A stretch of DNA of 64,000 nt from the human T2T-CHM13v2.0 reference genome, Homo sapiens: the NCBI RefSeq assembly GCF_009914755.1, contig NC_060928.1, one strand, 5' to 3'. Numbering within the stretch: position 1 is the stretch's first letter; each line of letters starts with the position of its first letter. Below are positions 10,618-36,536 of the stretch, piece by piece. The notes under the pieces are model-generated. The model made no database searches. It had not been told where the DNA came from and saw only the letters and a program-made list of their open reading frames with translations. A program made the translations under genes and the position numbers.

Positions 10618-10910
10618 ATAGCACGCCCCGCGGGCCCTTGAAAAGGCGGCGCAGACGAGCAGCCGCGTCAGAATGCTTCTGGGAGTTGGGGGGTGGGTTC
10701 CTTTCTGTTGCTAGCTTGTAGGAGAAGCTGGGCTGTAGGAAGTTTATTTGCGGGGGGGTCTTAAAGACGCTGAAAGTACTGGCGGGCTTTGGTGGGGGTC
10801 TGGAAAAACCTCTCTGTACCTGTGACCGCGTTGCGTGGCGGGCGCTCCCCGGCCTCTCCTTTTTGACCGGTCCCGGGCGTTGCCCAGCCGCCAGTCCTCC
10901 TGCTCGGGTT

Positions 10911-12120
10911 TTGTAAGCAGGAGAGGGATGCTTTTTACGTCTTCTTAAAGTACGGTTAAGTGCCCTTGCTTGAAGTAGTTGCTGGCAACAAGAACGTAGG
11001 GGTTACTCTTTGTTGGGCCTGAACTCGTGCTTTTTCTCTCAAAAGTTGAGCTTTTGAAAGGCAAAAAAGGCGTGGGGGATGGGGGAGCTGTCGGTCTTAA
11101 GGAAGTTAAAGGTTATTTCCTAAGCAAAACAAGTCTCACTCCTAAAACCAGGGTAGTGGCTCAGTTGTGGCGGGAGAGCAGGGGCTGTAAAGTGTCCAAG
11201 TTTCTAGTCTCATCTTTCAGTAGGATGGGTACAAGCTTTCCCCTTGGGGCTCTGGGGGCTGGGAGGGTTGTAAAAGTGGGAGAAAGCAAAGTATTTGGCG
11301 GGGTGCGGGCGGGTAGCTGAATGTTGTTGTAAGTGGAAGAGGAATGCTGTTGGCGTCCTTCTCTAAGCACGGTTAAGTGCTTTTTCTTGAAGTAGTTGCT
11401 GGCAACAGGAACGTAAGGGTTACTCTTTGTTAGGCCTGAACTCGTGCTTTTTCTCAAAAGTTTAGCTTTTGAAAGGCAAAAGTGGGGGTGGGGGCGCTGC
11501 TGCTTTTAAGGAAGTTAAAGGTTATTTCCTAAGAAAGCAAAACAAGCCCCACTTTTAAAACCCGGGTAGTGGGTCAGCTGGAGAGCAGGCGCTGTGAAGT
11601 GTACAAGTTTCTAGTCTCATCTTTCAGTAGAATGGGTACAAGCTTTCCCTCGGGGCTCTGGGGGTGGGAGGGTTGTAAAAGTGGGAGAAAGCAAAGTACG
11701 TGGGTGGGGGGTAGCTAAATGTTGTTGTAAGCGGGAGATGGATGCTTTTGGCGTCTTTTTTTAAGCACGGTTAACTGCCCTTGAAGTAGTTGCTGGCAAC
11801 AACGTAGGGGTTACTCTGCTGGGCCTGAACTTGTGCTGTTTCTCTCTCTCAAAACTTAAGCTTTTTAAGACGCAAAGGCGTGGGGAGAGGGGTAGGGGAA
11901 CTGCTACTTCTAAGGACGTTAAGGGTTACTTCAGAGCAAAACAAGCCCCACTTCTAAAACCAGGGCAGTGGCTCAGTTGTGGAAGGGAGAGCAGGGAATG
12001 TGAAGTGTCCAAGCTTCTAGTCTCGTCTTTCAGTAGCGTGGGTACAAGCTTTCCATTGGGGCTCTGGGGGCTAGGAGGGTGGTAAAAGTGGGAGAAACCA
12101 AAGTACTTGCGGGTAGCTAA
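10911..12120. repeat. Three tandem diverged copies of a ~400-bp unit (10911-11326, 11327-11724, 11725-12120)
   Basis: Each copy starts ttgtaag and shares acggttaa, gaagtagttgctggcaac, gggtacaagctttcc, taaaagtgggagaaa and gggtagct. Confidence 0.95.
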
Positions 12121-13359
12121 AAACTCTGAAACCCACGCTGTGAGCGGTTCCTGCTTCTCTGAAAGGTCTGTTCTGCTTAAGGTTGTATCAAGGTTAGTCT
12201 CTTGCTACCTACTTCCGTAGAGCAGTCTCTCGTGGCTCACCTGGGTTAGTGGCCATGTTGCCTGTCTCCTATTCTTCCTAACCTTGTGTGTTCTCCAGGT
12301 AGCTGAGTGATCCATCCGAAGTAAAATATTCCTGAGCTTGTCTGTAGGGGCTCCAAGTTTCATGAAGTAAAAGCTAGTCTTGAAAACGGCCCATTAGGGT
12401 CCTGGATGACAGTCTCCGGGTCACTTAGACTCCGTTGTCCGCCTCCCCTCATCTGTATCATCTTTGCCTTGGGTACTGGCTTCGGAGGGTGTTTTCCTGA
12501 AACTCTTACCTGAGATCTACTTAGCTGACTCCTGTGTCCTTCAGAAGTACTTAATTGCTCAAATGTCAGTTGATGAGTGTCACCGGTCTCATTTTAAATT
12601 GCAACTTCAACTCCTTGCAAACACTGCTTCTCATTCCCGCGTTCCCTAACTTTAACTCTCAGGAATAACCCTGACACCTGGAAGATGCTCCTAGGGATGA
12701 CCCCACTCCCCACCCACAACTGTTAATCAGGAAATAACGGATATGAAAGTAGCTCTGCGAACTGAGGAGCCGTGGAGAATGTACAAAACAGATTCCTAAA
12801 GTAAGATACGCAGGCCCGGCTTGTAGGCCGCTGCATCTGCTTTGATAACTTAGAACTCATCAAATCACCTTGAGACCCTTAAAACAAATGGTATAATTGC
12901 ATTCACAGGTAGTGCATTCGTGTAACAAGATTAAGAAAACGAAGGACCAACTTCAAGCTCTTGCAAGCTGGTAACCTTTACACTCGTGCATAAAGCCTTG
13001 CTGGAGTTGACACTGAAAACTAAACAGTCGAACTTGAGTAAAACATATCCAAACTCCCAGCTGCTGGGCTCTACAGCTTATTTTTAGCTTGAAAGTTACA
13101 TGTTGGAGCTGCAGAGGCTTTATGGTGGTGGTGGGGGAGCTGTTTGTTCGTAGTCACTTGAGTCTATATGAACGTGGCAGGAAATCTGAAGGATTTGAAA
13201 GGAAAATGGGAAACACCGGGGTGTTCCAGGATTTTCCCTGTGGGGCGAGCTCAGTTTGGTGTTGTCAGCTGTGGGAGCTTTAACACTTGAACCGTCTTTA
13301 CTGTGGGTCTAGCCTATTCGTTGGGCTCCCCTAGTCACCACTCATGCCTTCGTGTATCC

Positions 13360-13780
13360 TGTTGTGTTGGGCCCCCACTGAATTAAATAGGGATGGCACC
13401 ATGTTCGAGAAGCCGAGGCGACCCAGAGCCAATGAACACATATGGTGTATGGAGGGGACTTGAATACAGAGTGGTCCAGAGCAGCCAGCTGGGACAGAAC
13501 TGCGCTTCAAAAAGCAGTTGATACAGATCAGGTACACCTACACTCCCAAGGTGTGGCTAAGCCGCTATCAGGTGTCAAGCGTGTAAGAGTCACTGCCAGG
13601 ATATACTTGAGTTGCTTTCAGCTGTCATAACTCTAATAGGATGGGGATCCTGAGGTCTGCATACACCAGTGGTTCACATCTCTGAGGACCCAGCTACTTC
13701 GCTGGCCCTTTCTGGAACCTGTCTACTTGGAGCTCCGTAGGAAGGGTCTGAAAGGCCCCTTACTCGCACTGAACGACAGC
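13360..13780 (-). mobile_element. Probable ERVL-class solo LTR remnant (LTR47-like)
   Basis: tgttgtgttgggcccc...atagggatggcaccatgttcgagaagccga...gacccagagcca resembles the reverse-complemented U5 end of this LTR group. The right boundary is uncertain. Confidence 0.4.
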
Positions 13781-16700
13781 CAGAATAAGACTAATTTGCC
13801 TTCCCCTTCCCTGCTGATTTCTCTGGGGTGCTGCTTCCGATAGTGACCAGCGTCCTTGCATCTCCAGCTGCACTGACCAGAAATCTCACCCCCCACTTAG
13901 GTTAAAGCCTTCACTAAATCTAGTTGCTTAGAACCTCTGTATCAAATCTTTCTGTAGCCACAGCCCTGCTTTGGTGCTCTTTAACCTGGGTTATTCTAAT
14001 TTCTTCCTGACCAGTTAATCTGTATCTGCTTGGAGCCCCTTACTGCAGCCAGAGAAACTTTAAAAGCTTGTTGAGCCTTGGGTAGCCTAGGTTTCTATCT
14101 TGAGACCGAACATCCTCCCTGGGCTTCTGAGACACTGGCATGCTGAGGCTCTGCCTGGCTCAAGGAGCAAGTCTCCTGGGTCATTCTGTTGTGGCACCTG
14201 TCTCTGGGTCTTCACTGATGCCTCAGTTTAAGGCCAATCCACCCTCAAGCTATACTCCCATTTTGTTGCACACTGGTTTGCTTATGACTATGGGGTTCAT
14301 CAGCGTCTCGACTCTCCCCTTTTTAGGGATTGAGAGCAGGGACCTTGTTGCTCGAGCACTTGTTGCAGGGGCCCACCCAGACAATTGGAAACAGAACGCA
14401 GGTGTGCCAGATCTATGAACACCTGCGTGCTTTTCAGACAGTGGCAATTCTTCCTTTTGCTGTGTGAGCGAGCAACATAAGTATCACCTGAACTTAATTC
14501 TAAAGTGGCAACAATGTGTTCTTGAAACTTCTAAGCAGCAGCAGCTTAGGATACTTAACTCTTCGACTACCTTTGGGGTAAACTAGCTCCAATTGGGTAA
14601 CTTGGGCAAACCGCTAACTGGCGTCAGGTGCTAAATGAGCTGTTTAACAGCTTTCCACTCAGGGGAAAACAAGTTTGGAGTGGGTTCCGAACGCTTTATG
14701 TAACGCAAACAGTGGGGGCGTGTGGATTCCTGGAATGCACCTTGTCCTCTGAGCACGCTGAGTCCTGGCTTCTAGAGCCACAAACTGCAAATACGTCAGA
14801 TGTGTGAGGCCTATACTGGAAGCTTTGGGGAGGAACAAAGCCACAGGAGAGCTGAATTTCTCTCCAAAGCCTGTCAAGCTGCTTCCTCACTTTCAACCCT
14901 CATGGGTTCTGTCCAGGCTCAGGAAAAGGGGGCTTTCTCTTTCCTGTTGCTTCAACTGTATCAACCCCCTAGGAAGAGCCCTATGCAAGGGTAGCGCTGC
15001 TCCCGTCTAGCTCACCCTGTGGACTGAACCCCCGCCCTTTCCACAAAGGACTGTTGGGTATAGTGGGGGAAGCCTTTCTGCTCCAGGAATTTCAGTCCCT
15101 TTTGCAGGCCTGTCCCTGTCTCATAAATAAGCTCAAGTCATACTCAAAGTTTCATCTCCGGAGTGTCCCTGGAGTAAATCACCTTTATCTACTACCTCAA
15201 GCCAGTCTCGCTGCCTCCACCTCCCCATCTGCACAGGGAGTTGGAGTGATTGCCAGTGAGTCCTCTAGAGGGTCTGACACATGGTGGGAAGTGGCTGCCC
15301 ACAGCCTGAGTTAATGTGTAACGCTTTTGGCTATGCTGTCAGGCTTTCAGATCTTTAATTCTCAAATCTCACTGGTTGGATCGAGTCCATAGTCCGTTAC
15401 TAGCTGTGACTAGGGAGGGTGGTGAAATGCATGGCAAAAGCAGCTACTGGTATCCACCTTTTGACCTGGAAAAATCCGGGTTGTGGGGCCTGGGCTGTCC
15501 CTCCAAAGTGAACTGGAAACCGGGCTACCTTGCCAGAAGTGCTTGGATGCCTTTGTCAGAGGACTGGTAACAAAGCCTTTAACCTGCTAGCATAAACCTT
15601 ATGCAAAAGGGGTTAGTCCGGTTAATTCTGCCAAGGCAAGAAATGAGTTATCTGCAACCCTCCAGTGAACTCGTTTACTGAATCCCTTCTTGGGGGGCCC
15701 TATGTGTTGTAAATACCTTTCTTTCCAGTTGAGCAGCCCATTGGAAAGTGGGTTTTGCAAATAAGCAAATAACTAACACCTGCATGCTGCAGCAGCTTTA
15801 AATCCCTGCAAGTCATGGAAGCTTGGGCATAACTTTTCAGTTTGAGGTTACTGAAGGATGTACTTCTAAACAGCTAATCAACGGCATAACTTCAGTAACA
15901 CAGTACAAGGAATATATCCTACTTGGGTTGTCTACCCTTGTTTCTTAACCATAGCTTCAGGCAACGAAAGCTATCTGATCATCTTCAAGATCCCGGTGAA
16001 GGGGGTGGTAACTGGGTGGAGTTGAGCCTCCACACTGGAGGACCTAAGGCCGTGTCTTGCACTGCTTCGAAGCTCCTGTAGCTGCAAAAGAACTCTGGGG
16101 ACAGTTAAACAATTCCCCTGTCTCATTCTTTCTTCTTAAACTCCCATAAGTGATAGAACACAGTCGCTTCTGTCTACCTGCTGCCTGAGACTTGGTGTGT
16201 TGCTGTGAGGCCTGGTGACAGCCCCGGCCTGTCCTTTCCCGGGACCCTTCCTGGAACGTTTACTTACCCTCATACTTGCAAGCACTTCGTGTGAGCTAGA
16301 TGCTGGGTTTGTGGGCCCTTGCCCTTCATCTTACATCAGGGAAGGGAACTTGGGTTGGAACTTTGCCGAGTTGAAAAGCAAGTGATGCAACCAGGAGTTA
16401 AACAGGTTGGGTCTACAGAGTCTAAACTGTCCTTTACACGTGAAAGGGCTGAAATGGATAGATCAGATATGGAAGTTTTAATTGTGCCCCTAAATAACCA
16501 ACTTTTCCAGTGAAGGTAGAATCTTAGCATGCTCTCACCCAAGTTCAAGGATAGCGTCAGTCGCTCTCCAGTTGAAAGCTTTGTCTTTGGGTAACTACTT
16601 ACCGTCCTAGGGTTTCTGCCTTTTCCTTCTGACTCAGTCCACAGTGCCTGGGTCTTTGCTGGCCTCCAGTTGTGTGGTCAGAGCTAACGTGTTTGGCTGT

Positions 16701-17514
16701 TGAGCACCGGTGTCTGGCTTGTTTTGTGCCCACAGTGCAGGGGCTTGGCTACGTGGTCACTGGGCATCCTGTGGTGCTGTGGGGGTCTGGTCTGAGCGCT
16801 GTGCCAGTGCCTGTTGCTGATATGGAGATTCCGGTCATGAGGCTGTTCGCTGCAGCGAGTCTCCTTGTACAGACCCTGTGGTGTGGCCTTCTTGCCCATT
16901 GGCCTGAGGGCTTGGGTCCTTCCTCTGCTCCATGAGCATAGAAACTCTAGATCTCAACACCCTGTGTTTGAGTGTTCAAGACTGTTAAACAGAACTGGAT
17001 CCCAGCCCTCTTTTCCAGGAGTGCTGAGGATCTTTGAGCCCTGACACAGCCACAAATCCATCACAGCTCCTGCCAGCACCTCCCAATGCTGCCCCTGGTT
17101 CCTTGGCGGTGGCCTCCGGCCATTTCCAAACACTTCTGCTATTAGCTGCCTTTATAGTCGGCTTCCCTCAACACGTGGACCAAAGGGTCAGCTTTTCTGC
17201 GAAACAGGATGGATATAGATTGTTAGTGGAGGAGGGCTCTTGTATTTGTTGCCATGGAGACAGTGACCAGCTGGATGCCCTGCCTCTCCGTTCTCATGCC
17301 TCCCTGTGGGGGAGGGGGGGAATCGCACTGCGGATGGGCCTAGGGAACTTGGACATGTGTCATTCAGCCCTTTGCTCCTTTGACTCAGGCTCTGCCTGCC
17401 TGTGGTAAACAGGTGCTCTGATCTGCTCCCTCCAAGTGGGTGGTGTTTCTGGGTAGACATTGCCCATCCCAGCAGTGGGGATCTGGTAGTTGAGATCTGC
17501 ATGTGGCTGGGAAG

Positions 17515-17930
17515 CTGTACTGCTCTGCTAGGGCTGGCATAACAAACTGCTATGAACTTGGTGGTTTCAACGGAAATTCTTTTCTGGAAGCCAGGAAATC
17601 TGAGATCAAGAGGTGGGGTGTGGTTGGCTCCTTGCCAGGCTGTGAAGACTGTTTCAGGCCTCTAGCTTCTGATGGTCTGCTGGCATCTCTGCTCCTTGGC
17701 CTGTGGGACCACCACCCCATCCCTGTTTTCATCCTTAATGTCTTCTCCCTGTGCCTGTTTCCGCTTCCCTGTTTAAAGGACACTGGTCCTATGGGAGTAG
17801 GGCCCACTTTGAGTTTTACTTCATCTTAATTGCAGCAGCAGGCCACCCTGTCTCTAAACAAGGTCACACACTGAGAAAATACTTCACTGTAGGGGCTGAG
17901 TTTCATCTATATTGAAGGTAGGGCTTGCCC
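17515..17930 (-). mobile_element. MLT1 (MaLR) LTR
   Basis: ctagggctggcataacaaa...gaagccaggaaatctgagatcaag...taaaggacactggtc...ctaaacaaggtcacacactgag are diagnostic MLT1 motifs in reverse orientation. Confidence 0.75.
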
Positions 17931-19499
17931 TGTCATCCTCCCACCCGTAAAGCCCCAACCACCAGCCTCTCAGCGCCTTGGGGACAAGGCAGAGGCGGTT
18001 GAGTTGCGGTGACCCACCTTGTTGACAGTGGCAGTGGTCACACTGTAAAGTGTTGCCACCCATTCTGGGGCACCAGCCCTTGGGGAAACTGGACTTAAGG
18101 CACAACCTGGATCAAGAGGCTAGGTGCCTGCACTATATCTGCCTGGCAAAGGAATCACTGAGGAAGTGACTGAAAAGTGCTTCCCTATCTCTGCCCCTGG
18201 TTTTGGCTTTCATCCTAAAATGCTCTAATGAAGCGGCCTAAAACACATGGCTGCCTTAGAAAACAACCACTGGAGCATTTGAGGAGTTGGCATCTCCCCC
18301 CTGCCTTTGGGGACCGTGGGACCAGTTTCTTAGCTCGGCTGCTGTGGCCATAAAAGTACTCCTGCTTCTAGGCATGACCCGGAGGATGGTGGTGGCCACA
18401 AAGCAACCAGGAGTGGGTGCTGTCTCAATGTCCCTGGCTTGGGCCCTAGGTCTAGACAAGGACCTCGGTCCACTTTGTTCCGGTCTGGGAGGGTTCCAGT
18501 CATTCCCGATGGCATTGCTGGGATTGGACAGGAAGTCCCTACCATACACAGGCAACTCAGGTTCATGTAGAAGGAGGCTCCTCAATAAGGGAAAACATCA
18601 AAGGGGGAAGTTTTAGATGAATGAGCTCAGACTCCGATGAAGCTGATAGACCGAGTAGCACGACACATTCTGGAATATCTGGCAACTGGCATGGACTCCG
18701 TAAAAGGATTTTAATTTTTGTCTGCTTTTCGAGGTACATTTAGGCACAGCTGTTAAATTGGTAGTTATGTCCTATTGGGAAAGATGCTGCAGTTGTGGCC
18801 ACAGTGGAGGCTTCTACACACGTGGGACACGGGGGACCCTGAGAGACTTGGCCCTGCTGCAGATTAAAGATGACCGAGGCAGTATAGTGTCGGCAGGTCA
18901 GCCACATACCTAGTGCTTGCCTGGCATACTGGATGTTACATGATTTTCAATCTCATCTTAGGTAGTACGGGAAAGTGGTCTCTAATTTGTTCCCCATATG
19001 ATTTGTAGGAATGGTCTTAAAATGCTGGGTGGTGAAATCAACGTTGTGTTCCTTGTAATATTTGAAACCTGGAAACTGCAAGTGCTCAGTCATAAGAGCT
19101 GATGTCAGCCACTGGGTGTCTATTTGGTTCACAAAGCTTACTTCAGCCCTCCCAAATGTTCTCCCACTCCACATCAATACCCAGCTTCAAAAGGAGCCTC
19201 CAAGCAAAGTGTTTTTGGGTATCAACCTTGACCGTGGAGGAATTGTGAAGCCAACGTAGCAAGATACCTTGATCATGTGGACTATCACAACCTGTGGGAT
19301 TGTGAACATCTAGAGTCATGTATGCACCTCACATGTCTACCGAACACCAAAGGGTCAGACACGAATGCAGTATTCTGGAGCTTGGTGCCTAGTCACTTAT
19401 TCCCCCTCTGTAATACAAATTGTTGGTGCGTTATAAGGATAAAACGCAGGCTCTTAAGGCCTGGTCATATTAGAAGTGCTCGAATGTCATGTACATGTT

Positions 19500-20050
19500 A
19501 GGTGGCTGGAGGTACTATGGAAAATAGGAACATGTTATCTCTTCTGTGTGAAGGTCAGGGAGGCTCTTGTAGGACTCTAAAGTTGATATGTGAAGGATGT
19601 GAAGAGCATAGAGTAGTATGTGATATGCTTGGCAAAGGAATGGAGTCTCCCTGAATACCCGTGTGGAATGGAAGTAGGGCTGGGAAATTAGAGCCAGGGC
19701 GAGTGGCTGGGGCTGCTTCATGGAGGTTCCCCAATGACCTCATGATCAGATGCCATCAGGATGTGTCAAGCGTGATGTGGATCAGATTGACTTGTTGGGG
19801 TCACTACTCCCTGTGGAGGGTGGGGTTAAATGGACCAGCCTGGGACACTGGAGTTGGGCCATTGTGAGTGGTGGCCTACGGAGGATTGGAGGGTAGCAAG
19901 CCTGACATGTGCAGGCAGGGGACACACGCAGCATTGTCCTGGATGTCAGAGGAAAGGAGCCCAGGGATGATGAAGCTATGGTTTGGACAATACAGTGGGT
20001 GGTGGGTGATGCCAGTCACTTAAAAGTGAAGGCAAGCAGCAAGGGATCTG
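19500..20050 (-). mobile_element. Degenerate L2 fragment
   Basis: Purine-rich L2-like motifs: gaaggtcagggaggc, gaggaaaggagcccagggatga, gatgccagtcactta. Confidence 0.4.
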
Positions 20051-20961
20051 ACTGCCTCCTTTGCATGCACTATTAGAATTGATCCTTCTATATCAGCAAT
20101 CTCGTAGTCCCAGAAGCCCTACCCCACTGTACGGTGAAACACCTGGGTGTGTAGCTGGTGGCTTCAGGTAATACTTAAGTTGTAACTTTCCCAAACCCTT
20201 TGCATGTTAAACAGTGATGCTCTCAACTTACATGCAAGTTGGATCATTGTTTTGAGAAAGCTTTGCGGTCAAGTCGTTCCTCAACAGATACATTGTATTT
20301 CAAGTTCCTCTGTTAGAATCACAAGTATTGAGAATGTGGGTTTATGGTCATCATGCTGTTAGCTTGCGGATATCAAGGTGATGGCATTATCAGGTGTACT
20401 ACACTGGGATCTGTCATGCTAACGACTCAGCAGCTAGACCACTTCTACTTGAGTTGTCACAAGGTGGGCCCTGATTGTCTCCTTGGAACCATGTCCTGTG
20501 TCTCCTGCTTTTTCCCACTCAGCACAAACATCCTGGATTTAGGATGCACAACTAACTTATAGCTATCTTTAATTGCACAGGAATAAAAACTCCTGTGAGG
20601 TCCTCATCTTAATGTTGAGGCATTAGTCCCGAAGTTAGTTCCCACAGTGCTGTATCTGACTAGGTAGCAAACAGATTTCCTCTGGCTTGAGGATGAGTTC
20701 TAAGTTACGTGTTTTGTGTTAAAGGGAAATTGGCTGAACTAACAGGGCTAGGATAGTACACAAATTCTAGTGTTGGTAAATTAGGTCTAGGCTTAAGGTG
20801 GCGGGTATCTTGGCCATAAAGATACAAATTTCCATTCTATAACAAAATCACTAACATGATCAAAAATGGTTTGACAGGATACCAAATAGAACACTTGAGG
20901 GTAGCGACTCTTGATAATCAACTGCTGCTTGAAGTCACTTATGCACGCAGTCTTTGAGATT

Positions 20962-21889
20962 TGAAGGGGCGGGGTTGCCCCTCCACATCCGTGGGTGTTT
21001 CTCGTTAGGTGGAACGAGAGACTTGGGGGGAAAAAGAGAAAGTATAGAGAAATAAGGGGACCCAGGGAACCAGCGTTCAGCATATGGAGGATCCTGCCAG
21101 CCTGAGTTCCCTTAGTATTTATTGATCATTTTTGGGTGTTTCTCAGGGGGTTGTGGCAGGGTCATAGGATAATAGTGGAGAGAAGGTCAGCATATAAACA
21201 CATGAACAAAAGTCTGCATCATAGACAAGGTAAAGAATTAAGTGCTGTGCTTTGGATATGCATACACATAAACATCTCAATGCCTTACAGAGCAGTATTG
21301 TTGCCCGCATGTCCGACCTCCAGCCCTAAGGCGGTTTTCCCCTATCAGTAGATGGAACATACAATCGGGTTTTATACCGAGACATTCCATTGCCCAGGGA
21401 CGGGCAGGAGACAGATGCCTTCCTCTTGTCTCAACTGCAAAGAGGCATGCCTTCCTCTTATACTAATCCTCCTCAGCACAGACCCTTTATAGGTGTCGGG
21501 CTGGGGGACAGTCAGGTCTTTCCCTTCCCTCGAGGCCATATTTCAGACTCTCACAGGGGGAGAAACCTTGGACAATACCTGGCTTTCCTAGGCAGAGGTC
21601 CCTGCGTCCTTCCGCAGTGTTTGTGTACCTGGGTACTTGAGATTAGGGAGTGGTGATGACTCTTAACAAGCATGCTGCCTTCAAGCATCTGTTTAACAAA
21701 GCATATCTTGCACCGTCCTTAATCCATTTAACCCTGAGTTGACACAGCACATGTCTCAGAGCACGGGGTTGGGGGTAAGGTTATAGATTAACAGCATCTC
21801 AAGGCAGAAAAATGTCTTAGTACAGAACAAAATGGAGTCTCCTATGTCTACTTTCTACACAAAGTAACAATCTGATCTTTTTCCCCACA
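20962..21889 (-). mobile_element. HERV-K (HML-2) solo LTR5 (older LTR5_Hs/LTR5B type), 928 bp
   Basis: Minus strand runs TGTGGGGAAAA...GGGGCAACCCCGCCCCTTCA, with TATAAAA (~21370-21376), AATAAA (21118-21123) and the characteristic LTR5 U3 sequence. TSD is imperfect (agatt/aaatt). Confidence 0.95.
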
Positions 21890-22609
21890 AAATTTAAGTA
21901 GACTTGGCCTTGTCATTCTGTCCTTTGGAGCTGATCTGGAACAAGCTTTTAATCTAGTCTTGCAGATGGAAAAGCTCTTTACCCAGATGCACACAGGGCA
22001 TAAATGTGGGTGAGTCTTGGACCTATGAGTAAAAAGACACCAAGGTATCAATCGCTGTAGCTTTGCTCGACACCTGAGTCTACCTCACTTACAAAAACGG
22101 ACAATTTGGCAGGACTGGCTTTTGAGACTCGGAGACAGATCAAGATGCTTTGCAAAGGGAATGTGTTCTCCAGTCGTGGGACAAAACGTGTCTATTAAAT
22201 TCTTACTACGTCGTAGGTATTACAGTACCCAAATACCCAAGATGTCTCGGCTGAAAGGCCAAGGTGGACTTAAGACCGAGGAATACCATGTGCCCAAGTC
22301 CATGGTCACAACTATTCTGTGTAGAGAATCATGGCCTAGTGCAAGATCGACCTCATATCCCTGAGTTAAGGCACTGACTACTTGTGGGGAGATGAAAAGG
22401 TGGTAATCTTGAACCAACTTGAGAATGGGGGTAAGCTCAGATGCAAGTGTGTGCTTCCCCTACCCGTTATGACTTGGAAGGACTTAGCAGAAGTGGCATT
22501 TGGAGCTCTTACATTGAGTGAAGGGATGGAAAAAACCCTTCCCTGGTAGGGGAAGTATGCAGACCACAGGTGGAACAGATTACTGCTCTGCAGGTACAAG
22601 TGTGCAAGC

Positions 22610-23022
22610 CCAGTAATTGGGGTTCTCCAGAGGGAGAAAGATACACTATAGTTTTTTGTAAGACCTTGTGGTCATGTAAGTTAGTACTTAATAGGGTGTC
22701 TGCAAGCTGAGGAGCAAGGAGAGCCAGTCAGATAGCTCTGAAACCCTGCAGAAAACTGAAGAACTTGGAGTCCAGTGTTCGAGGGCAGGAAGCATCCAGC
22801 ACAGCACAATGATATAGTCTGGGAGGCTAGGCCAGTCTCCTTTTCACGTTTTTCTGCCTGCTTTTTATATTAGCTGGCAGCTGATGAGTGTGCCCACCGG
22901 ATGTGAAGGGTGGATGTTCCTTCCCCAGCCCACTGACTCATGTTCTTTGGGCAACATCCTCAGACACACCCAGGATCAATATTTTGTATCCTTCAATCAA
23001 GTTGACACTCAGTACCATCACA
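22610..23022 (-). mobile_element. MLT2A (HERV-L) solo LTR
   Basis: tctgcaagctgaggagcaaggagagccagtc...actgaagaacttggagtcc...caagttgacactcagtaccatcaca matches the reverse complement of MLT2A. Confidence 0.85.
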
Positions 23023-25089
23023 CCCAGTGAGTCACAGTGCCGGGGGCTATCGGAGGGGACTTACTAGAGAGGGCTGGCCGTCAAAGCATACCCCACAGGG
23101 TTTGGTGGGGGGATGCGATTGGGGCCTTCAAGACTAGACAAGGTATTACAGCTCTTCCTGACCGTGTCCTTGGGAAGCCTTTGAGACCTCTTGGCAGGGA
23201 AAGTTCACCCAGAGACTATTGCTTAAAGGTTTGGCTCATATGTCATTCAGTCCCACAGATGGGCAGAGAGCTTGGGGAATGCTTGTTCTCCTAGGACATC
23301 CAGCTGGCAGCTGTGCTATGTGGTCTATGCAGATGGAGCAGCAGGGATCAGGGGTCACTGCTAGTGAATTGCATCTGCAGGAAAACTAAGTCCTGAGTCC
23401 AAGAGGGGATGGCCTCTGTTCTGCCATGGTGACTGCCAAGCTCAAGTTGGCAGATAACAGGGACTTCTCTGGAGAATTGTAGGCATAACTTCTAGTGCTT
23501 CTCGGGCTAATTCTAAGTACTTCGGTTGAGTGACTCCGTGCTGGGCAGCCACTGTGATTCCAGTGTAGAGATGAGGAAACTGGCCAGTGTCAGACCAGTC
23601 CGGGTATTATAAGACTTGACACTGGCTGAGTGCTTCACTTCTGTAAAACCGTAGATCCTACGTGGAAAAGATGACTGAATTGCTGCATTTAAAACCACAA
23701 GTCCAAGAGTATTTAAGAACTTGAACCCTTAACTTCAGGAAGTCTTATTTTACTTAGATCTTCTCAGTTCGTTTATTGAATCATAGCTCTCTACTTCGTG
23801 TGAAGATCAAATCTCTGCCAAACTTGATAATCACAGTTCATTTTAGACAGCCTAGCTGTTTATGGCATTTTAGATGCTGACATTTCTCAGCACAACTGTG
23901 CTGGCTTTTGAGACTAGATTAAGCTGCTTTCTGATTGACCGACAGGACAAGCTGTTTCTGGATGTGTTTTGGAAATCTGGTGCCAGAGTCTGGATGGTGT
24001 GTACTCGGCCCTAGGAAAAGCTGCTCTGTTTCAGTTATGGGGAAATCATTCAGGGATGTTAGGGTGAACGGATAACTACTCACCTCTTCCATGTGGGTGG
24101 ACTGTTCACCCACCCTTCTGGAGCGGGGGGAGCCATGTTGACCTTGGACTTTGCCCTCTTAATCCTCATGGTTCTCATCACTAGGAAGTAAAGGCTAGCC
24201 TGGGTAGTGAAGCCACAGTTCGTACCTGTCCTAGTTTCTGTCGTGGCGTTGGGTCTGCGTGGCTGCCCTGAAATGGTGCCCTGCAGTGTACTTCCTCACG
24301 TGCACTCACCTGAGTGGAGCTTCCTGTGCTTGTGTTGGAGGGCTGGTGCCTCATCTCCCTCCCCTTGAGGTCTTGATGGGGAGAACCTGGCTGAAATTTC
24401 CAGCTGGCAGAGGCGTCCTACTTGGCCACCACAGGCAGTTTTTATGATCTATCGCAGCAGGAGGCCAATATGTTGGGAGAAGGAAGCCTCCTGGGCTGGT
24501 TAGGGTAGTGTCTAAGTCTGTTTTAGCAGATGTGGGCTGCAAAACTCTTGTGGCTGAGTTGGCTGAAGGTGTCACCTGTTAAAGCCATGATGGGCTCTCC
24601 CCAACAGCTGGAGTACTAAACATTGCTCTGCTGGAGGCTGCTCGGGTCCAAGGCTGCAGCTGGACTCAAAGGGGTTCCTTAGGTGTTAAAGCAAACTTAG
24701 ACTGGTCCAAATCTTCTGTCTCAGCAGACCTCAGAATTTCAGCCAAGAGCTGCTTCTCTGGGTTCTAAAGAGGCTTTAGTGGGAGGAGGCAGGGAAGCCA
24801 GGACCCACCCGGAGCCTGGTGCAGAGAAGGAGCCACACTGAGCAGTGTAGAGACCTGAGGAGCCATGCTGCCCTTAGGCTGCAGTTGTGTTTGGGAGGGG
24901 CAGTTTTAGACTTGATAAGAGGGCACGAGTGGGCACAGGAGCCCAGCGTGGCTGCAGGGTGACCTGGAATTGGGCAGGGCACAGGTGGGCGCGGGAATGC
25001 AGTATGACTGCAGGGGTTGACCTCTCTCAGGGTGCCAGGAGTGCAGTGTGGCTGCAGGGTGACATCCAGGAGCGTGCTCAGGAGACTGA

Positions 25090-25352
25090 CCCCAGTGACT
25101 GACGTGGACTCTCCCCAGTGACTGACGTGGACTCTCCCCAGTGACTGACGTGGACTCTCCCCAGTGACTGACGTGGACTCTCCCCAGTGACTGACGTGGA
25201 CTCTCCCCAGTGACTGACGTGGACTCTCCCCAGTGACTGACGTGGACTCTCCCCAGTGACTGACGTGGACTCTCCCCAGTGACTGACGTGGACTCTCCCC
25301 AGTGACTGACGTGGACTCTCCCCAGTGACTGACGTGGACTCTCCCCAGTGAC
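25090..25352. repeat. Perfect minisatellite, 23-bp unit ccccagtgactgacgtggactct, ~11.4 copies
   Basis: Directly visible. Produces the repetitive ORFs at 24776-25410. Confidence 0.98.
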
Positions 25353-28099
25353 GGCATTTACCTAGAGAATCTGCTCCGATATAAGGCTGGCTAATTTCTG
25401 GATGGTGCACTCTGAGCAGGTTGAATCTGTAAACTTCACTCTTGAGCCTTGGCCTAGTGAATCTGGGACTTTTGGGTGTTCTCTCCTGTCCAGCACAGAA
25501 CAGTGAGGGGAGCTGACTTGGTTGTCACAGGACCCTACTTGTCATCCTGAGCAGCCACTATTTGATTCCCTTCTATGTCTGAGTATACATAGACCCTGCC
25601 TGTCACTAAGACTCCACCACACAGGGATGCTGGGCTGCTGATCAGCTGGTTACAGGAATCAGTAGGCTTTTGGGGGGCAGTGGTTGTGGAATTAAAAGAA
25701 CAGGGCTTTGCTGGGCCTTTCTCCATGTAATCCATACAGAGACGTTTGAACCTCCAGAATGGGGTCTTGGGGGGGGCTCAATGAGACCAAGTCTGACCCT
25801 CACCCCCCATCCTGTGAGTCAGACCAGGAAGGACCTTTAGTGACAGACTCCAGTAGTTTATCCCATAAACATAGGGTTGCTGCTATTGGGAGAAATCCTT
25901 GAATGTCCTCAGTGTGAACAGCCTTCAGTAGTAAGCACTCATCCCGCGACATCCTAGGGGATGCAGACGGAGAAAAAAGGAACATGGGAGAATGTGGGAT
26001 GGAGCTGCCTTGGGGGACAAACTCCAAAGGCCAGGACTGCAGGACCATCTGGAATGGTCCCATCCCTTCAGAGATGGTTATCCAGTGTGAAGATCCTTAT
26101 GGAAAAGCTGTCTGCTCTCCTATTCTGAGGGAAAACCTGAGTCCCACCCAAAAAACTCTCCCCATGCAACACGTGGTAAACGTGAGTGAGCCCTCACCAG
26201 CACCCTCACTGGAGGGCAACATGGAAGGCAAGCCACGTGGGATGCCCTCTTTCAGTTTGGACTCAGTAGATCGTGCTGGGGTTTAACGTGTTCACCTCTT
26301 GTTTGCTGTAAGTTGGATTAGATTTAGTTCTTCCTGCATGATGGCAGTGAAGATCGCATTAGATCGATTGCCTCTGAAAGCTATGCCCCACTGGGAGGCA
26401 ATCTTCATCCTTCATGGCCCCTTAGATGGGCTAAGAATCCTCACATTCAGCGTGCCGCACTCGCTCTGCAGCAGGTTGTACAGAAGGCAGGAACAAAGCT
26501 GGGACTCTGGGAGTTGGATGTGGGCAGCCTTGGGACTTAGTGGTCAGGTCTGTGAGTAAGGGGACAGTGGTTGTGCTGGTAAGAGTAAGGCAGAGCTCCA
26601 TTGCTGTGCTTTAAGCTCCAATTCTTTGCCAGTGCTTTGCAAGACTATCTCAAATGTCAGTTAAGGCTGCTGGAAGGAGATGGTCTAGGAGAGGTGTGGG
26701 GATGGACACAAGGTGGCCTTGGAAGAGCAGGGACCTGCCCCAGCTTTCCTTCTTACTCAGGATACATGGTTTGTCTGCCAGTATCCTTGTTCCAAATGTG
26801 ACCCGATGTTTGCAAGTCCAAAGAAGTGGTGGGAAGACAAGAGATCCAGAAACACAAATGAGTCCAGCTGCAGGCATCTGGATCCCACCAGCTTGAAAGG
26901 CTTGAGTGAAATGTTCAGCCTCTGAACTGTCATCCTCCTTGAAGACCTTGGGTGGAAGGAGAGCCCCAGACAGTACTTAGGGCCCTGAGGACACCACAGC
27001 CAGGCAGAGCCAGTGGGGAGCAGTCAGTTCAGCACAGAAGTGGCCAGGACCACCGACACCTCTAACAAGGTTAGAATTTGGACCGCGATGGGACGAGCTC
27101 AACTGGAGTCTTGCCCTGGGAGAGCTGGGGCACCTGGGCAAGAGGGGCAAGCTGCTGCCTTCCCATTTCACTTAGGAAATGCCTCCACCCACCCCCATCC
27201 ATGCCCTCTGGAGTCTTAGTGTTCGGGTAGGCTCTGTGCTGAGCCCGCCTACCCTCATGTGAGTTGGTGACTGAGACTGAGCTGATGCCAAGCTGTGCCC
27301 TTACCAGGCCTCACATGGGAACGTGTTCTGGAATTGAGGAACATAATTGCTGGAAAACCTGGACTTCTGGCCTACTGTGGCAATGAGGGCCTGAGGCAGG
27401 TGGACACGGGGGCTCTCTAGGCAGGGCAGCTGCTAGCAAAGGGATGCAGTGGTGGGGGGTACCACCAAGGGGCAGGACCTGTGTTCCTGAAAGGGACTTC
27501 ACTTTTCGGAGTTACTAAACTTGAAAAACGGGTGCTAGGTCTGCTCAGTTCTGGGGTGTAATGGGATATATTTCCCCATGGAATGATATGCTAGTGAACA
27601 TGTTATGTAGAACCAAGACATTCCTGGTAACCTGGCGGAACATGGACAAGACTAAGATGTCCTATGTGACCCTGATCTCACTGGCAGTACATAACTGGGA
27701 ATATCACACCAGGACGAGTCCGGCACTCAGCCCATTGTGGGAGGGGATGACTGTCCTGTGGGGTGCTCAGGCCTGGTTGGTAGCCTTGCTGCCCCCATTT
27801 GTGAAACACATAGGCTGGAGTTCTGAAGCTAAGCGGGGGTTCTTGCTCACTTCCTGTGGAATCCTGATGGGTGAATGTAGCGTGGGCGTGGGCTTGTAGA
27901 CCTTCAGGGCTTCCTGAACCTGCCTGGGAAAGGGATAAGTGATAAGCTCTGTTATCTTTTGGTGTACTGCCTGATGTCTTGGAGTGACAGTCCATGACCG
28001 ATGACGTGGTGGTTTGATAACCAAGAAGGGTATCTTTGGGTGGTGCTGGCCAGCTGTCTGGGGTTGGGAGTGCTGGGGGCATCATGGCAGGTCTTGGGG

Positions 28100-28375
28100 G
28101 TAGCATCCCAAGTGATGTAGCATCCCAAGTGATGTAGCATCCCAAGTGATGTAGCATCCCAAGTGATGTAGCATCCCAAGTGATGTAGCATCCCAAGTGA
28201 TGTAGCATCCCAAGTGATGTAGCATCCCAAGTGATGTAGCATCCCAAGTGATGTAGCATCCCAAGTGATGTAGCATCCCAAGTGATGTAGCATCCCAAGT
28301 GATGTAGCATCCCAAGTGATGTAGCATCCCAAGTGATGTAGCATCCCAAGTGATGTAGCATCCCAAGTGATGTAG
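28100..28375. repeat. Perfect minisatellite, 17-bp unit gtagcatcccaagtgat, ~16.2 copies
   Basis: Directly visible. Produces the repetitive ORFs at 27678-28458. Confidence 0.98.
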
Positions 28376-31300
28376 AATTTTTCCCACTTGTGCCTGTGTG
28401 CATTTAAAGTGAGATGCCTTGGAGCCTGAGGGGGGTGGGTGTGGGGCAGCTGCAGCATGACTAAGGTGTCTGCTGAGCCCAGGGGATGTCCTAATCTAGA
28501 AATCTTGCTCTGGGCATGCAGATGCCTAGGTCCCTAAAACTGACAGCTCGTGGTCTAGGGCTTGGATGGCCCCTTCCCATGAAGGATATGAAGCCAGCTC
28601 ATGATGCTGAGAAAGACCCCCTTCTAGGCAGATTCAGGTGAGATTTTTCCTAAGGCAGACAGGCTAGGTAGAAACATCAGGAGGCCACTTGCCTAGCTCG
28701 GGAGAGGAACCTTGGCAGGAGCCCAAGCCTGTCATCACGGGAAACATGACAATCTCCATTATGCCCTGAGCATAGTCAGAAGTGAGGAGACTTGGTGCCT
28801 GTCAAGTTTCCAACAATCCCAGCAGCCTTGAAGTCTGCTATATTACATTAGTTACTTCCAGTGCTGCTTCCTGGTCTGTTCTTGTGGTCCTTAACTTGGA
28901 TCAAAATTTTCAGGCTTCCAGGGAGAGTTGCCTTTATCTCCAGCCAACTTTCTAGGCTGTGCTGCAGACTAGGAGAAGCATTCTCAAGGTGGTCCTCGGT
29001 GTTGAGGAGAGAGGGGCTTAAACACAGGATGCAGCGGGAATCCCATCAAAGCAGGTCTTTCCTGGAACTTGCACCCTATCCCCTATTATGCAAGGATTGC
29101 CATGTGAGTGACCTTGATTCCAGCTTTCTGGTTTTTCTCACCTGGTGAATGTCAGAGTTGTACCTTGTTAAATGTAGTTGCTGCTTGACTGGGAGCTCAA
29201 GGCTGGGAGAGTGTATTGCTGAAGACTTGTTTTTGTCTCAGTGTTTAGGATCTAAAAACATCCCACGACTATTTCTGGAGGTGTTGAGGGTTTAGGGTTC
29301 AGTCTCTTATGAAGTACAGCCGAATAACATACTAGATCCCAGGATTCCAAGTATACCAGGGTGACGATTCAAATGACCAGGGACTCATGGGAGGGGCTGT
29401 GTTCCTCTGGTCATCTTTCATGGTGGACAGAGTCCTCAATGGAGGGCCATCAAGAGCTGACTCATCTACCTTGAGTGGGATGAGGTTATCAGCTCCTGGG
29501 TGACCACCTGTCTGTCTGGGATGTTCCTGGATTCCAGACCCCTGCTGATCCTCTTCTCAGTATGCAGTCCATCTCAAGACCACCAGGAAAAGGTGATGGG
29601 AGTGAGGAGGGGAGGGGAGGAGGGGAGGGGAGGGGTGGGTCACAGATTTGGCCCTCAGAAGAGGGGGCAAATGACTCACAACTTCGATACCCAAGCTCCA
29701 GACTTAATGACCTTGATCCTGAGGTGGCTATAAACTCACCAGCTGTCTGTCTTCCGGCTGAACTGATCTTAAGACAGGAATTTCATCTCTTCCATAGGGT
29801 ATCTATACTACTTAAATGGTTTCATCATAGTGGCTTTGCACTGACTTCATAATCGCATGTAGATTCCTGAAGATACTTCATTCATGCCAGCTCCAGCCAC
29901 TAGTCTTCACTGGGCTTGGCTTTAACTCCATGCCTTTCGCCTGACCTCTTACATCAGACTGGGGTGTTCAAGCTACATCCATGGAGATACTTAATTCTCT
30001 ATGGCAACAGAATTGGTATATGGGTGAAGGTGGTGGTTATTCATGGGCTTTCCTTACTGTGTGGCCACTGGAGGCCTGAAGCTGTCCACAGATGTCCCTG
30101 AGCTACTAGATGGGGCTCTTATTTGAAGGTTGTTCCGGGATGTTGCCAAAGAGAATAGAGGAAGGCGGCACACCGTCAGTGTGGTCTTTGTACCAATGGG
30201 GTTACTGTAGTCTGTTGAATACCCTGTCATCAGATAGGATTAACCTTGGCCTTGTTTGCTGTCCTCACTCGAGATACTACTGCAGTGACTGAAAGGAAGT
30301 GAGGTTTTCTTCAACCCTTTCTTCCCTTGCAAATCTCAGTGGAGCCTGACCTGAGGTATCCATGGCCAAGAGTTCCTATGCAACCTTAGGGTTGGAGAGG
30401 ATGTTAGTCCCTGGTCTGATGGACCCACCAGGGGCTGTCATCCTGTGTGCCTGCTTCCTGTCTCAGGGGTGTTCTTACCCTCAGCAGTTGGGTGTTCCAT
30501 GGAATGTACTCGGGTCCTGCCAGACGAATTCCCAACAGACCACATCCCACCTCACTCTGAACATAAAGGGCACGTGCTTTGGAGACTGGCATGCCAGGAT
30601 TTTGAGGCGGCCCCTCCCTAAGGTTTCAAGATTTTGGGGTGTTCTTCGTGGATGCTGTTGCCATTCACTACCTTTGGAGGTAGACAAATGATGCCCGAGA
30701 ATAATGGAATGGGTCAAGAGCATGCAGGCCTAAGATGTGGGGAGGTGGCTCTTGGAACTATTATGCCGACCTGTCTCCAGAAGGAGCCTTCTGGATGTCT
30801 TGGTCCTCCTGGTATCTGAGCACTTCTTGCCTCTGGTTGTGTGGCCTCGAAGGATATACAGCAGCCCATGGGGAGTCCCTGCTGGGCCCTGGGGAATGTA
30901 GGCTCCACAGCTCCTCTGCCCTGGGCTAGGTCCTGTCATATGTCAGGTTTTGCTTAGATTTCTTTGCAGTTATGTTCTAGGTATAGATGTCTTGCTCATG
31001 TTACCTGGACCTGAGTTTCCTGGATCTGGTTTGGCGTCTGTCACTAATCTTGGAAAACTCCTGGTTAGCATTACCTCAAATACTTCCCAGATGAGGCAGG
31101 ACGGGTCAAGAGAGCGGGAGCTTATGTTCCCATGTCCAGGTTGGTTGGGCCTGGGTAAAGTAGCCCACAATCCTTGTTAGGGAGAGTCCTGGGTATATTT
31201 CAAAATAGTTTTCCTTGCCAGAGGCATGAGATTCTTCCATCCTCAGTTGAGACTAAGTGTGGGGCTCTTGGAAATAGCCCAAGTCATTTCCGTCCCTGGA

Positions 31301-31654
31301 GCCTGAACTCCTTTTGACTACGTTGAGCCTATACTCACTTTCAGATAGTCAAAGCTGTTCCTGCAGGTACTTTTCCCTGCTGGCTGTGACAGGGTCCTCT
31401 TGTCTGGCTCTGTACTTCCTGGGCAGTGGCTTGCCCTGTTCATCTTTGGCTCTTGAGAATGGTTTACTTACGGGTTGGTTCAACCTTTTTCTAGTCAAGA
31501 GGGGGATGAATTCTAAGCTCTACAAATATCAGACAGTAACCCTCGTCTGGAAAATTTCCTGCTGATCACATCCCGGTGGGTTTCCTCTTCAGCCGCGTCA
31601 TCACCAAGTAGGTGAGCTGCGTTTTCCAAAGTATTATACTCAAATGAACCTAAA

Positions 31655-32125
31655 CAAAACATTTCTATTTCAACCATGTTGAATTTTATAATCGGTGGCA
31701 TTAATCGCATTTACAATGTTGTGCACCTATCACTTGAACTAGTTCTTCACCCCACCAAAAACTGCAACCACTAAGCAGTAATGTTTTCCTTCTCCCTTCA
31801 CCCCCAGTCACCTCCAATCTACTAGCTCTATAAATCTGCCTACTCTACATATTTCATAAGATTATAATCATCTGTCTGGTTTTTATCAGTTTCCATCCAC
31901 GTTGTTGCGTATCACAGCTTTTGATTAACAATCCTTTGCATGGAGATGTCAGTTTCTTCTTGGTATTGACGTTGGGTTGGCTTCCGTGTTCTGGCTGTCA
32001 TGAATAGCGTTGCAGTGAACATTGGGCATATGAAGGTGTTTGCTTCAATCCCTGTTTGCAATTATCTTGGGTAAAAGTGGAACTGTTGGATCATATGGTA
32101 ATTCTTAGGTTTTTGAGGTACTGCT
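31655..32125 (-). mobile_element. Old L1 (L1M/L1MB-type) 3' end fragment
   Basis: catttacaatgttgtgca, ctccaatctact, ctgcctactctacatatttcata, ggctgtcatgaatagcgttgcagtgaacatt and ggatcatatggtaattc match an L1M 3'UTR/ORF2 end in reverse. Confidence 0.8.
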
Positions 32126-33352: not shown

Positions 33353-33513
33353 TCCAGCCTCCCTGCGCGTCTCCAGCCTCCCTGCGCGTCTCCAGCCTCC
33401 CTGCGCGTCTCCAGCCTCCCTGCGCGTCTCCAGCCTCCCTGCGCGTCTCCAGCCTCCCTGCGCGTCTCCAGCCTCCCTGCGCGTCTCCAGCCTCCCTGCG
33501 CGTCTCCAGCCTC
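33353..33513. repeat. Perfect CpG-containing minisatellite, 19-bp unit tccagcctccctgcgcgtc, ~8.5 copies
   Basis: Directly visible. Absent from the paralogous position (~49660-49690). Confidence 0.98.
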
Positions 33514-36124: not shown

Positions 36125-36536
36125 TATACTAGTCAGGGTTTCCTAGAGGAACAGAATAGGATGGATACACACATATAAAGGGGAGTTTATTAACTTACAC
36201 AACCATAAGATCCCCAATAGGCTGTCTGCAAGCTTGAGGAGCAGAGCCAGTCCAAGTCTCAACTGAAGAACTTAGTCCGATGTTTGAGAGGTTAGGAAGC
36301 ATCCAGCATGGGACAAAGATGTAGGCTGGGGGTCTAGGTCAGTCTCACCGTTTCATTTTTCCTGCCTGCTTTATATTTGCTGGCAGCTGATTAGATTGTG
36401 CCCAACAGATGAGAAGGGTTGGGTCTGGTTTTCGCAGCCCACTGACTCAAATTTTTATCTGGCAACACCCTCACAGATATACTCAGGAACAATAGTTTGC
36501 CTCCTTCAAGTTGACACTTCAGTGTTAACCACCACA
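36125..36536 (-). mobile_element. MLT2A (HERV-L) solo LTR
   Basis: tatactagtcagggtttcctagagg...aataggctgtctgcaagc...caagttgacacttcagtgttaaccaccaca is an essentially complete MLT2A in reverse. Confidence 0.88.

What the first reader, a model, noticed from the sequence alone, without database searches (positions are those of the whole stretch)
20962..21889. Excess of 2-5 bp deletions in a young LTR5: a possible transcription/TOP1 mutational scar
Against the recalled LTR5 consensus (~970 bp or more), this 928-bp copy shows at least six small deletions at short repeats: CTACTGA(GA)TAGG, AACTCAG(AG)GCTG, GTGCTCT(CT)GA, TTATTTC(TTTC)TCTATAC, AGAAAG(AAG)TAGAC and ATGCA(AA)GAC. The MLT2A, L1, AluJ, GAGE, DPPA4 and HML-3 sequences in the region look similarly eroded. 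Deletions of 2-5 bp at short repeats or TNT motifs are the known TOP1-associated (ID4-like) signature that scales with transcription. This would independently support very high germline transcription here.
Basis: partly seen in the sequence, partly recalled or inferred. Interest (0 to 1): 0.72.

Follow-up and report, generated by a model that had tools for sequence, protein, structure and literature searches.

The report
Oocyte piRNA cluster accumulates short deletions
A retroviral LTR inside the busiest small-RNA (piRNA) locus of human oocytes has lost ten 2-5-base pieces, about seven times more per substitution than unselected copies elsewhere; older inserts in this and two similar loci show a weaker version, likely because heavy germline transcription, probably through topoisomerase 1, keeps cutting bases out.

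Summary
Window 20962-21889 is a catalogued solo LTR5_Hs (HML2.LTR231, 928 bp). It lacks 12 short stretches: ten of 2-5 bp and two of 7 bp, with no 1-bp deletion. None of 48 other copies shares 11 of the 12. Twenty copies chosen only by a 24-base motif hold 21-29 such deletions per 731 substitutions, against 9 per 33 here (odds ratio 7-9.5, p<1e-4). The LTR lies about 10 kb into the most productive human oocyte piRNA cluster (WDR1-ZNF518B). Seven older inserts in this cluster and in the chr12 cluster miss 109 stretches of 2-5 bp against 29 in their outside relatives; 1-bp gaps are balanced (36 vs 40). An LTR in a third cluster is about sixfold up. All ten LTR deletions fit the TOP1 (TN*T) motif, but so do most control deletions. 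There is no strand bias, and 6-30 bp deletions are also raised, so TOP1 is likely but not shown. A substitution excess in this LTR is not established. The cluster, its fast evolution and germline TOP1 deletions are known; I found no report of these clusters as short-deletion hot regions.

The parts
20962..21889 (-). Solo LTR5_Hs of HERV-K (HML-2), HML2.LTR231, antisense to the cluster transcript; 12 deletions, 1 insertion
21020..21215 (.). Six deletions near 21026 (2 bp), 21034 (7), 21047 (4), 21101 (2), 21144 (4), 21212 (2); positions shift by a few bases within repeats
   Evidence: shared exactly by 0 of 48 copies
21340..21350 (.). 2-bp deletion at a two-copy repeat near 21344
21750..21882 (.). 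Five deletions near 21757 (2 bp), 21812 (2), 21850 (3; also in 3 of 48 copies), 21858 (4), 21878 (7)
20957..20961 (.). Left copy of the 5-bp target-site duplication (right copy 21890-21894; 4 of 5 bases match)
10700..64000 (+). 5' part of the oocyte piRNA cluster piC-ZNF518B-WDR1 (hg38 chr4:10,117,120-10,397,432, +), divergent from WDR1; start converted to window coordinates approximately
   Evidence: PMC10964541 Table S6; PMC13111593; skew turns from negative to +0.07..+0.15 in all 11 5-kb bins after 10 kb
22590..23035 (.).
36105..36550 (.). Second MLT2A-like LTR; 5 deletions of 2-5 bp (one shared with the first), 2 longer; 30 outside copies hold 9 in all
36620..37140 (-). Processed GAGE-family copy, antisense; deletion test inconclusive
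39776..40062 (.). Diverged Alu; deletion test inconclusive
51641..53880 (-). Intronless copy of a spliced chr10 sequence (T2T chr10:80.916-80.923 Mb), antisense; 24 stretches of 2-5 bp missing here vs 5 missing on chr10; 1-bp 12 vs 13
58183..60231 (.).
62096..62367 (.). Old interspersed repeat fragment; 6 vs 3 gaps of 2-5 bp

Best explanation
This solo LTR5_Hs sits in the most productive piRNA cluster of human oocytes and carries a real, several-fold excess of 2-5 bp deletions that other inserts of the cluster share; the excess is likely a by-product of intense germline transcription, most likely made by topoisomerase 1. Shown here: the deletions, their excess over unselected copies, their spread over the cluster and two other oocyte clusters, and their fit to short repeats, microhomology and the TN*T motif. 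Known from print: the cluster gives 34% of uniquely mapped oocyte piRNAs from one + strand transcript; TOP1 cutting twice near an embedded ribonucleotide, followed by strand realignment, removes 2-5 bases in mammals, in proportion to transcription. Inferred: polymerase traffic over 300 kb loads TOP1 here generation after generation; the non-coding sequence tolerates the losses, which fix by drift; antisense inserts therefore drift away from their targets faster than copies elsewhere. Whether the events arise in oocytes or in spermatocytes is untested; the locus is reported active in both.
For: LTR: 9 private 2-5 bp deletions per 33 non-CpG substitutions vs 21-29 per 731 in 20 unselected copies (OR 6.9-9.5, p 7e-5 to 9e-6), 6 per 426 in 29 best hits, 8 per 817 in 56 unselected Alus. 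No 1-bp deletion in it. 8 of 10 at tandem repeats vs 4 of 16 in controls (p=0.014). TN*T 10 of 10 (p=4e-5 against uniform placement, 0.036 given a shiftable site). Seven older cluster-vs-outside pairs: 2-5 bp gaps 109 missing in the cluster copy vs 29 the other way, 1-bp 36 vs 40; 0.087 gaps per mismatch vs 0.035-0.037 in 39 neutral pairs (p 8e-11). RAF1P1 against the intact RAF1 frame: 17 vs 3. Among 41 well-anchored deletions in those pairs TN*T is met in 26 (14.8 expected), and in 26 of 28 shiftable ones (20.3 expected, p=0.008). An LTR in the CCNG2-CXCL13 cluster: 5 per 36 vs 9 per 385 in 11 copies (p=0.006). Strong + strand skew starts at the cluster's 5' end.
Against: TN*T does not separate cluster from background: 36 of 38 vs 28 of 32 shiftable control deletions (p=0.4); class-matched p=0.2 for the LTR. 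No strand bias (15:19). 6-30 bp deletions are also lopsided (39 vs 6 in the seven pairs), and the LTR's two 7-bp deletions have no microhomology, which TOP1 does not explain. 13 of 41 well-anchored old deletions have no microhomology at all. In the third cluster only 3 or 4 of 6 deletions fit TN*T. Outside comparators for old elements were best hits, which favours less-deleted copies, and alignments at 17-27% mismatch are noisy (only 7 vs 2 of the chr10 gaps have 4 clean matches each side). The excess falls from 7-9x in the LTR to about 2-4x in older inserts. Alu and GAGE tests were inconclusive. The other two clusters rest on one 6-kb sample each, placed by partly recalled coordinates, with weak skew. 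No polymorphism, de novo or expression data were analysed here.
Confidence: 0.55

Rival explanations
1. Transcription-linked but not TOP1-at-ribonucleotide: R-loops or other damage give double-strand breaks in arrested oocytes (or spermatocytes), and end joining removes a few to tens of bases.
For: 6-30 bp deletions are raised as much as 2-5 bp ones (39 vs 6); two 7-bp LTR deletions and 13 of 41 old deletions lack microhomology; no strand bias; substitutions look raised in old inserts too (chr12 element A 25-27% from three copies that differ by 9-10% among themselves). Maternal point mutations rise with transcription (PMC13439702, abstract and Discussion).
Against: In the cleanest case 10 of 12 deletions are 2-5 bp, six of them 2 bp, all at repeats or microhomology; 1-bp deletions, common after end joining (own knowledge), are hardly raised (0.048 vs 0.034 per mismatch, balanced in direction). 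Some longer gaps in old inserts may be merged neighbouring events.
Confidence: 0.22
2. Chance and ascertainment: the reader picked a short outlier among hundreds of LTR5_Hs copies, and best-hit comparators and noisy alignments make older inserts look deleted.
For: Control counts are over-dispersed (0-4 per copy; 9 or more has p=0.02 at the worst copy's rate). My first controls were biased young: the ratio fell from about 20x to 7-9x with unselected copies. Alu and GAGE tests are flat.
Confidence: 0.1
3. A regional property other than transcription (replication timing, low methylation, meiotic breaks, chromatin) raises small-deletion rates where these clusters happen to lie.
For: Nothing here ties the rate to transcript level; no gradient was measured properly; the window also has many young minisatellites and old local duplications, a sign of general instability.
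Against: Three clusters on different chromosome arms agree in direction; the one Alu on the WDR1 side of the promoter has 0 deletions of 2-5 bp for 18 substitutions (one short element only).
Confidence: 0.08
4. Selection: antisense inserts are pushed to diverge so that their piRNAs stop hitting parent genes, and deletions are favoured.
For: PMC6461890 raises this idea for reverse pseudogenes in testis clusters and sees lower similarity to parents (passages). The inserts whose orientation I could set are antisense.
Against: The same paper found no difference inside vs outside cluster parts. The strongest case is a transposon LTR, where divergence would weaken silencing; single 2-bp losses in a 300-kb non-coding RNA should be nearly neutral; selection would not predict the size and motif class.
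Confidence: 0.05

Closest known systems
ID4 / ID-TOP1 transcription-associated deletions (PMC8866115)
   Same: 2-5 bp deletions, mostly 2 bp, at short tandem repeats and microhomology, TN*T motif, tied to high transcription, present in the human germline.
   Different: That work used tumours, cell lines and de novo indels in genes, correlated with male germ-cell expression; the words oocyte and maternal do not occur in its main text. Here the signal is fixed, evolutionary, intergenic and concentrated in piRNA clusters, with longer deletions added.
Oocyte piRNA cluster piC-ZNF518B-WDR1 (PMC10964541, PMC13111593)
   Same: Same locus, + strand, antisense L1/ERV inserts, lower phyloP than its flanks.
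   Different: Those papers describe fast evolution and TE content; neither main text treats small deletions (0 and 1 unrelated occurrence of 'deletions') or proposes a mutational cause.
HERV-K (HML-2) LTR5_Hs solo LTR HML2.LTR231 (PMC3228705 supplement)
   Same: Same element, strand, length (928) and subgroup.
   Different: Listed only with a divergence-based age of 14.2 My (11.2-17.2); its deletions are not remarked in the row.
Female transcription-associated mutagenesis (PMC13439702)
   Same: Mutation rate rises with transcription in the female germline.
   Different: Protein-coding genes; 'indel' and 'piRNA' do not occur in the main text.

Membership tests
ID4 / ID-TOP1 signature | Deletions of 2-5 bp dominate, mostly 2 bp | tested here: met
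   10 of 12 LTR deletions are 2-5 bp (six 2, one 3, three 4), none 1 bp. Older inserts also have many of 6-30 bp.
ID4 / ID-TOP1 signature | At short tandem repeats or microhomology | tested here: met
   LTR 10 of 10 (8 repeat, 2 microhomology); older inserts 28 of 41 vs 19.8 expected.
ID4 / ID-TOP1 signature | TN*T motif above a context-matched expectation | tested here: inconclusive
   LTR 10 of 10: p=0.036 given shiftable, 0.2 class-matched; older inserts 26 of 28, p=0.008; controls equally rich, 28 of 32.
ID4 / ID-TOP1 signature | Rate scales with transcription | tested here: inconclusive
   Raised in three highly transcribed clusters against unselected loci; no dose-response or boundary measured.
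ID4 / ID-TOP1 signature | Dependence on TOP1 and embedded ribonucleotides (RNase H2) | not testable with these tools
   Needs TOP1cc mapping or genetics in germ cells.
LTR5_Hs (HML-2) | Closest relatives are 968-bp class LTR5_Hs copies; catalogue assignment | tested here: met
   40 best hits 89-92% identical over the whole length; nests among them in a 50-copy tree with weak local support; catalogue type LTR5_Hs.
LTR5_Hs (HML-2) | Solo LTR with target-site duplication | tested here: met
   5-bp duplication, 4 of 5 match; terminal dinucleotides intact.
Oocyte piRNA cluster piC-ZNF518B-WDR1 | Position inside the published + strand interval | tested here: met
   hg19 10,129,000-10,129,928 lies in chr4:10,115,601-10,436,958 +; hg38 interval.
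Oocyte piRNA cluster piC-ZNF518B-WDR1 | piRNA reads from the LTR itself | not testable with these tools
   No small-RNA data here; PMC13111593 notes mainly sense short piRNAs rising for HERV-K.

The most novel reading that the evidence does not exclude
The great oocyte piRNA clusters are the human genome's strongest regional sources of TOP1-type short deletions: transcription in non-dividing oocytes erases the antisense transposon and gene copies they trap, giving piRNA memory a built-in half-life, explaining their negative phyloP without selection, and predicting maternal, age-dependent 2-5 bp de novo deletions there.
Probability: 0.35. Interest if true: 0.82.

Novelty: new variant of a known kind. 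Interest (0 to 1): 0.62.

Why it matters
It would give a mutational cause for the unexplained fast evolution of mammalian oocyte piRNA clusters, and a natural test bed for whether TOP1 mutagenesis works in non-replicating oocytes, which existing germline work (male expression data, point mutations in genes) leaves open. It also means that repeats and pseudogenes inside such clusters are dated too old by divergence, and that trapped antisense copies lose match to their targets faster. The claim can be tested at once with public variant and trio data.

Tried and rejected
Subfamily feature: rejected for 11 of 12 gaps. Assembly error: same 928 bp in hg19. Substitution excess in the LTR: first suggested by best hits (33 vs mean 14.7), not upheld by unselected copies (3.8% vs 4.1%); the tree branch is long (0.098 vs 0.015-0.041 for weakly supported neighbours), so it stays open. 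APOBEC-type hypermutation: no G>A or C>T excess. Replication slippage as main cause: no 1-bp deletions and one insertion in the LTR. Strand bias as TOP1 evidence (non-transcribed-strand bias in yeast, recalled): none (5:5 in the LTR, 15:19 pooled). Exon-by-exon RAF1P1 alignment gave 7 deletions and undercounted; the spliced reference gave 17. Control totals typed by hand (419, 737) were slightly off; searches use 426 and 736. MAFFT merges neighbouring gaps and counts 7 rather than 10 in the LTR. Alu and GAGE tests inconclusive. HML-3 not found (36.6-39.7 kb and 60-64 kb were not searched effectively). A bacterial promoter scan was irrelevant. Two recalled paper ids were not held. No Dfam, gnomAD or primate genomes were on hand.

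Full report
What the element is. Window 20962-21889 is a solo HERV-K (HML-2) LTR on the - strand. Its 40 best matches in the genome are 89-92% identical over the full length and mostly 950-970 bp long. The supplement of PMC3228705 lists it as HML2.LTR231, LTR5_Hs, 928 bp in hg19, estimated age 14.2 My (row seen; part 2 of 8 read; method passages). The ends are intact and a 5-bp target duplication matches at 4 of 5 bases.

The deletions. Against 29 natural copies the element lacks 12 stretches: near 21026 (2 bp), 21034 (7), 21047 (4), 21101 (2), 21144 (4), 21212 (2), 21344 (2), 21757 (2), 21812 (2), 21850 (3), 21858 (4) and 21878 (7). It has one extra base and no 1-bp deletion; the net is -40. 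Projected on one natural copy, 11 gaps are shared exactly by 0 of 48 other copies and the 3-bp gap by 3 of 48; I drop that one from the private count.

Is it more than background? The 29 best hits hold 6 deletions of 2-5 bp and 16 of 1 bp for 426 non-CpG substitutions. Best hits are biased towards little-changed copies, and the catalogue shows many LTR5_Hs as diverged as this one. I therefore listed all 70 exact matches of a 24-base LTR motif, set aside the window copy and the 27 already in the top-40 list, and fetched every second one (20) of the remaining 42. These average 4.1% private divergence against 3.8% for the window copy, so a substitution excess in this LTR is not established. They hold 29 deletions of 2-5 bp, or 21 when gaps that recur in several copies are counted once, for 731 substitutions; the worst copy has 4. 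Nine per 33 against these gives odds ratios of 6.9 and 9.5 (p 7e-5 and 9e-6). 56 Alus lying by chance in fetched flanks give 8 per 817.

Where it lies. The WDR1-ZNF518B interval is an oocyte piRNA cluster conserved in position across mammals, with lower phyloP than its flanks (PMC10964541, section 9 read; Table S6 gives hg38 chr4:10,117,120-10,397,432, +). PMC13111593 (section 12) calls it the most productive cluster of human oocytes, 34.05% of uniquely mapped piRNAs, unidirectional, rich in antisense L1 and ERV. PMC5648030 (passage) reports a pachytene testis cluster divergent from WDR1 too. The sequence agrees: T-over-A plus G-over-C skew is -0.18 and -0.08 over WDR1 and +0.07 to +0.15 in all 11 5-kb bins after position 10,000. 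The LTR is about 10 kb from the start, antisense.

Is the whole cluster affected? I compared other inserts with relatives outside, counting gaps each way. An intronless copy of a spliced chr10 sequence (51641-53880): 2-5 bp stretches missing here 24, missing on chr10 5; 1-bp 12 and 13. RAF1P1, 114 kb into the cluster, against the joined RAF1 exons (open frame of 604 codons): 17 vs 3; 1-bp 6 and 6. DPPA4-like copy 19 vs 7, its L1-like insert 10 vs 3, a fragment at 62 kb 6 vs 3. Two MLT2A-like LTRs have 5 and 7, while 30 outside copies have 9 in all. The cluster Alu (2.6 vs 1.8) and the GAGE-like copy (5 vs 3 over three exons, parent uncertain) are inconclusive and are left out of the pooled counts.

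Other clusters. I took one blind 6-kb sample from each of the next two clusters, placed with gene anchors and partly recalled hg38 positions. In the CCNG2-CXCL13 sample an LTR (MER11-like by recall) has 5-6 deletions of 2-5 bp for 36 substitutions against 9 for 385 in 11 of its 39 listed relatives (p=0.006). In the TBX5-RBM19 sample two old elements miss 16-19 vs 3-4 (3 comparators) and 8-14 vs 4-7 (5 comparators); the three outside copies of the first differ by 9-10% among themselves and by 25-27% from the cluster copy, which may mean faster substitution or an older subfamily. Pooled over seven cluster-vs-outside pairs, one comparator each: 2-5 bp 109 vs 29, 1-bp 36 vs 40, 6-30 bp 39 vs 6. 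Per mismatch, 2-5 bp gaps are 0.087 against 0.037 in 11 neutral non-Alu pairs and 0.035 in 28 Alu pairs with the same aligner (p 8e-11); 1-bp gaps are 0.048 against 0.034 (p=0.04). The caveats are best-hit comparators and noisy alignments at 17-27% mismatch.

Mechanism. PMC8866115 (passages and the germline section) defines ID-TOP1 as 2-5 bp deletions at short repeats or microhomology with a TN*T motif, made by two TOP1 cuts near an embedded ribonucleotide, rising with transcription and common among human de novo indels. In the LTR, 8 of 10 are at tandem repeats and 2 at microhomology, and all 10 fit TN*T (p 4e-5 against uniform placement, 0.036 given a shiftable site, 0.2 class-matched). In 41 well-anchored deletions of older inserts TN*T is met in 26 of 28 shiftable ones, 20.3 expected (p=0.008). 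But control deletions fit as well (28 of 32; p=0.4). The data therefore read as the ordinary germline 2-5 bp process running several times faster, not as a different signature. Against a pure TOP1 reading: no strand bias (15:19), two 7-bp LTR deletions without microhomology, 13 of 41 old deletions without any, and the raised 6-30 bp class. I put transcription-linked mutagenesis at about 0.77 in all, TOP1 as main agent at 0.55. PMC13439702 (abstract, Discussion, term search) finds that mutation rises with transcription in the female but not the male germline, which makes the oocyte the likelier site, but it does not treat indels or piRNA loci.

Novelty. The cluster, its fast evolution, the LTR and germline ID-TOP1 are each known. 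Seven full-text searches combining piRNA clusters, oocytes, small deletions, TOP1/ID4 and 4p16.1 returned no paper describing oocyte piRNA clusters as short-deletion hot regions; the library lacks most subscription papers, and I saw only listings for most hits. PMC6461890 (passages) notes higher transposon and pseudogene divergence in some testis clusters and reads it as age or selection.

Verdict: observation confirmed and extended beyond the element; TOP1 likely but not shown; a new setting for a known mutational process, testable at once with population and trio data. Interest 0.62.

Noticed in passing
window 25090-25352, 28100-28375, 33353-33513, 38824-38985: Four near-perfect minisatellites (units 17-23 bp, 7-16 copies, 96-100% match) in 51.5 kb of the cluster against 1 in 171 kb of control flanks (p about 0.01): young tandem expansion beside the deletion excess.
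   Followed up: partly
window 10911-12121: A degenerate 407-bp unit repeated 2.9 times (about 80% alike) right at the 5' end of the cluster, under annotated enhancers.
   Followed up: no
window 32867-38487 vs 49148-55461, and chr4:10.17-10.20 Mb: Old local duplications at 65-74% identity inside the cluster.
   Followed up: no
window 51641-53880; L061, L062: Unannotated processed antisense copy of a spliced chr10 sequence (T2T chr10:80.916-80.923 Mb; splice signals at both intron ends; an Alu present only on chr10).
   Followed up: partly
window 36620-37140 and 58183-60231: Unannotated GAGE-family (Pfam PF05831 match at 36820-37038, - strand) and DPPA4-like processed copies of germline genes in the cluster.
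   Followed up: partly
window 22590-23035 and 36105-36550: Two MLT2A-like LTRs 13.5 kb apart share a 5-bp gap and an insertion site yet are only 74% alike; possibly one lineage or a local duplication.
   Followed up: no
L078:1150-2760: Element in the chr12 oocyte cluster 25-27% diverged from three copies that differ by 9-10% among themselves: possible several-fold substitution excess.
   Followed up: partly
L099, L104: LTR5 copies at chr5:46.25 Mb and chr12:37.68 Mb (near centromeres, by recall) have 7-8% private substitutions but one 2-5 bp deletion each: the opposite pattern.
   Followed up: no
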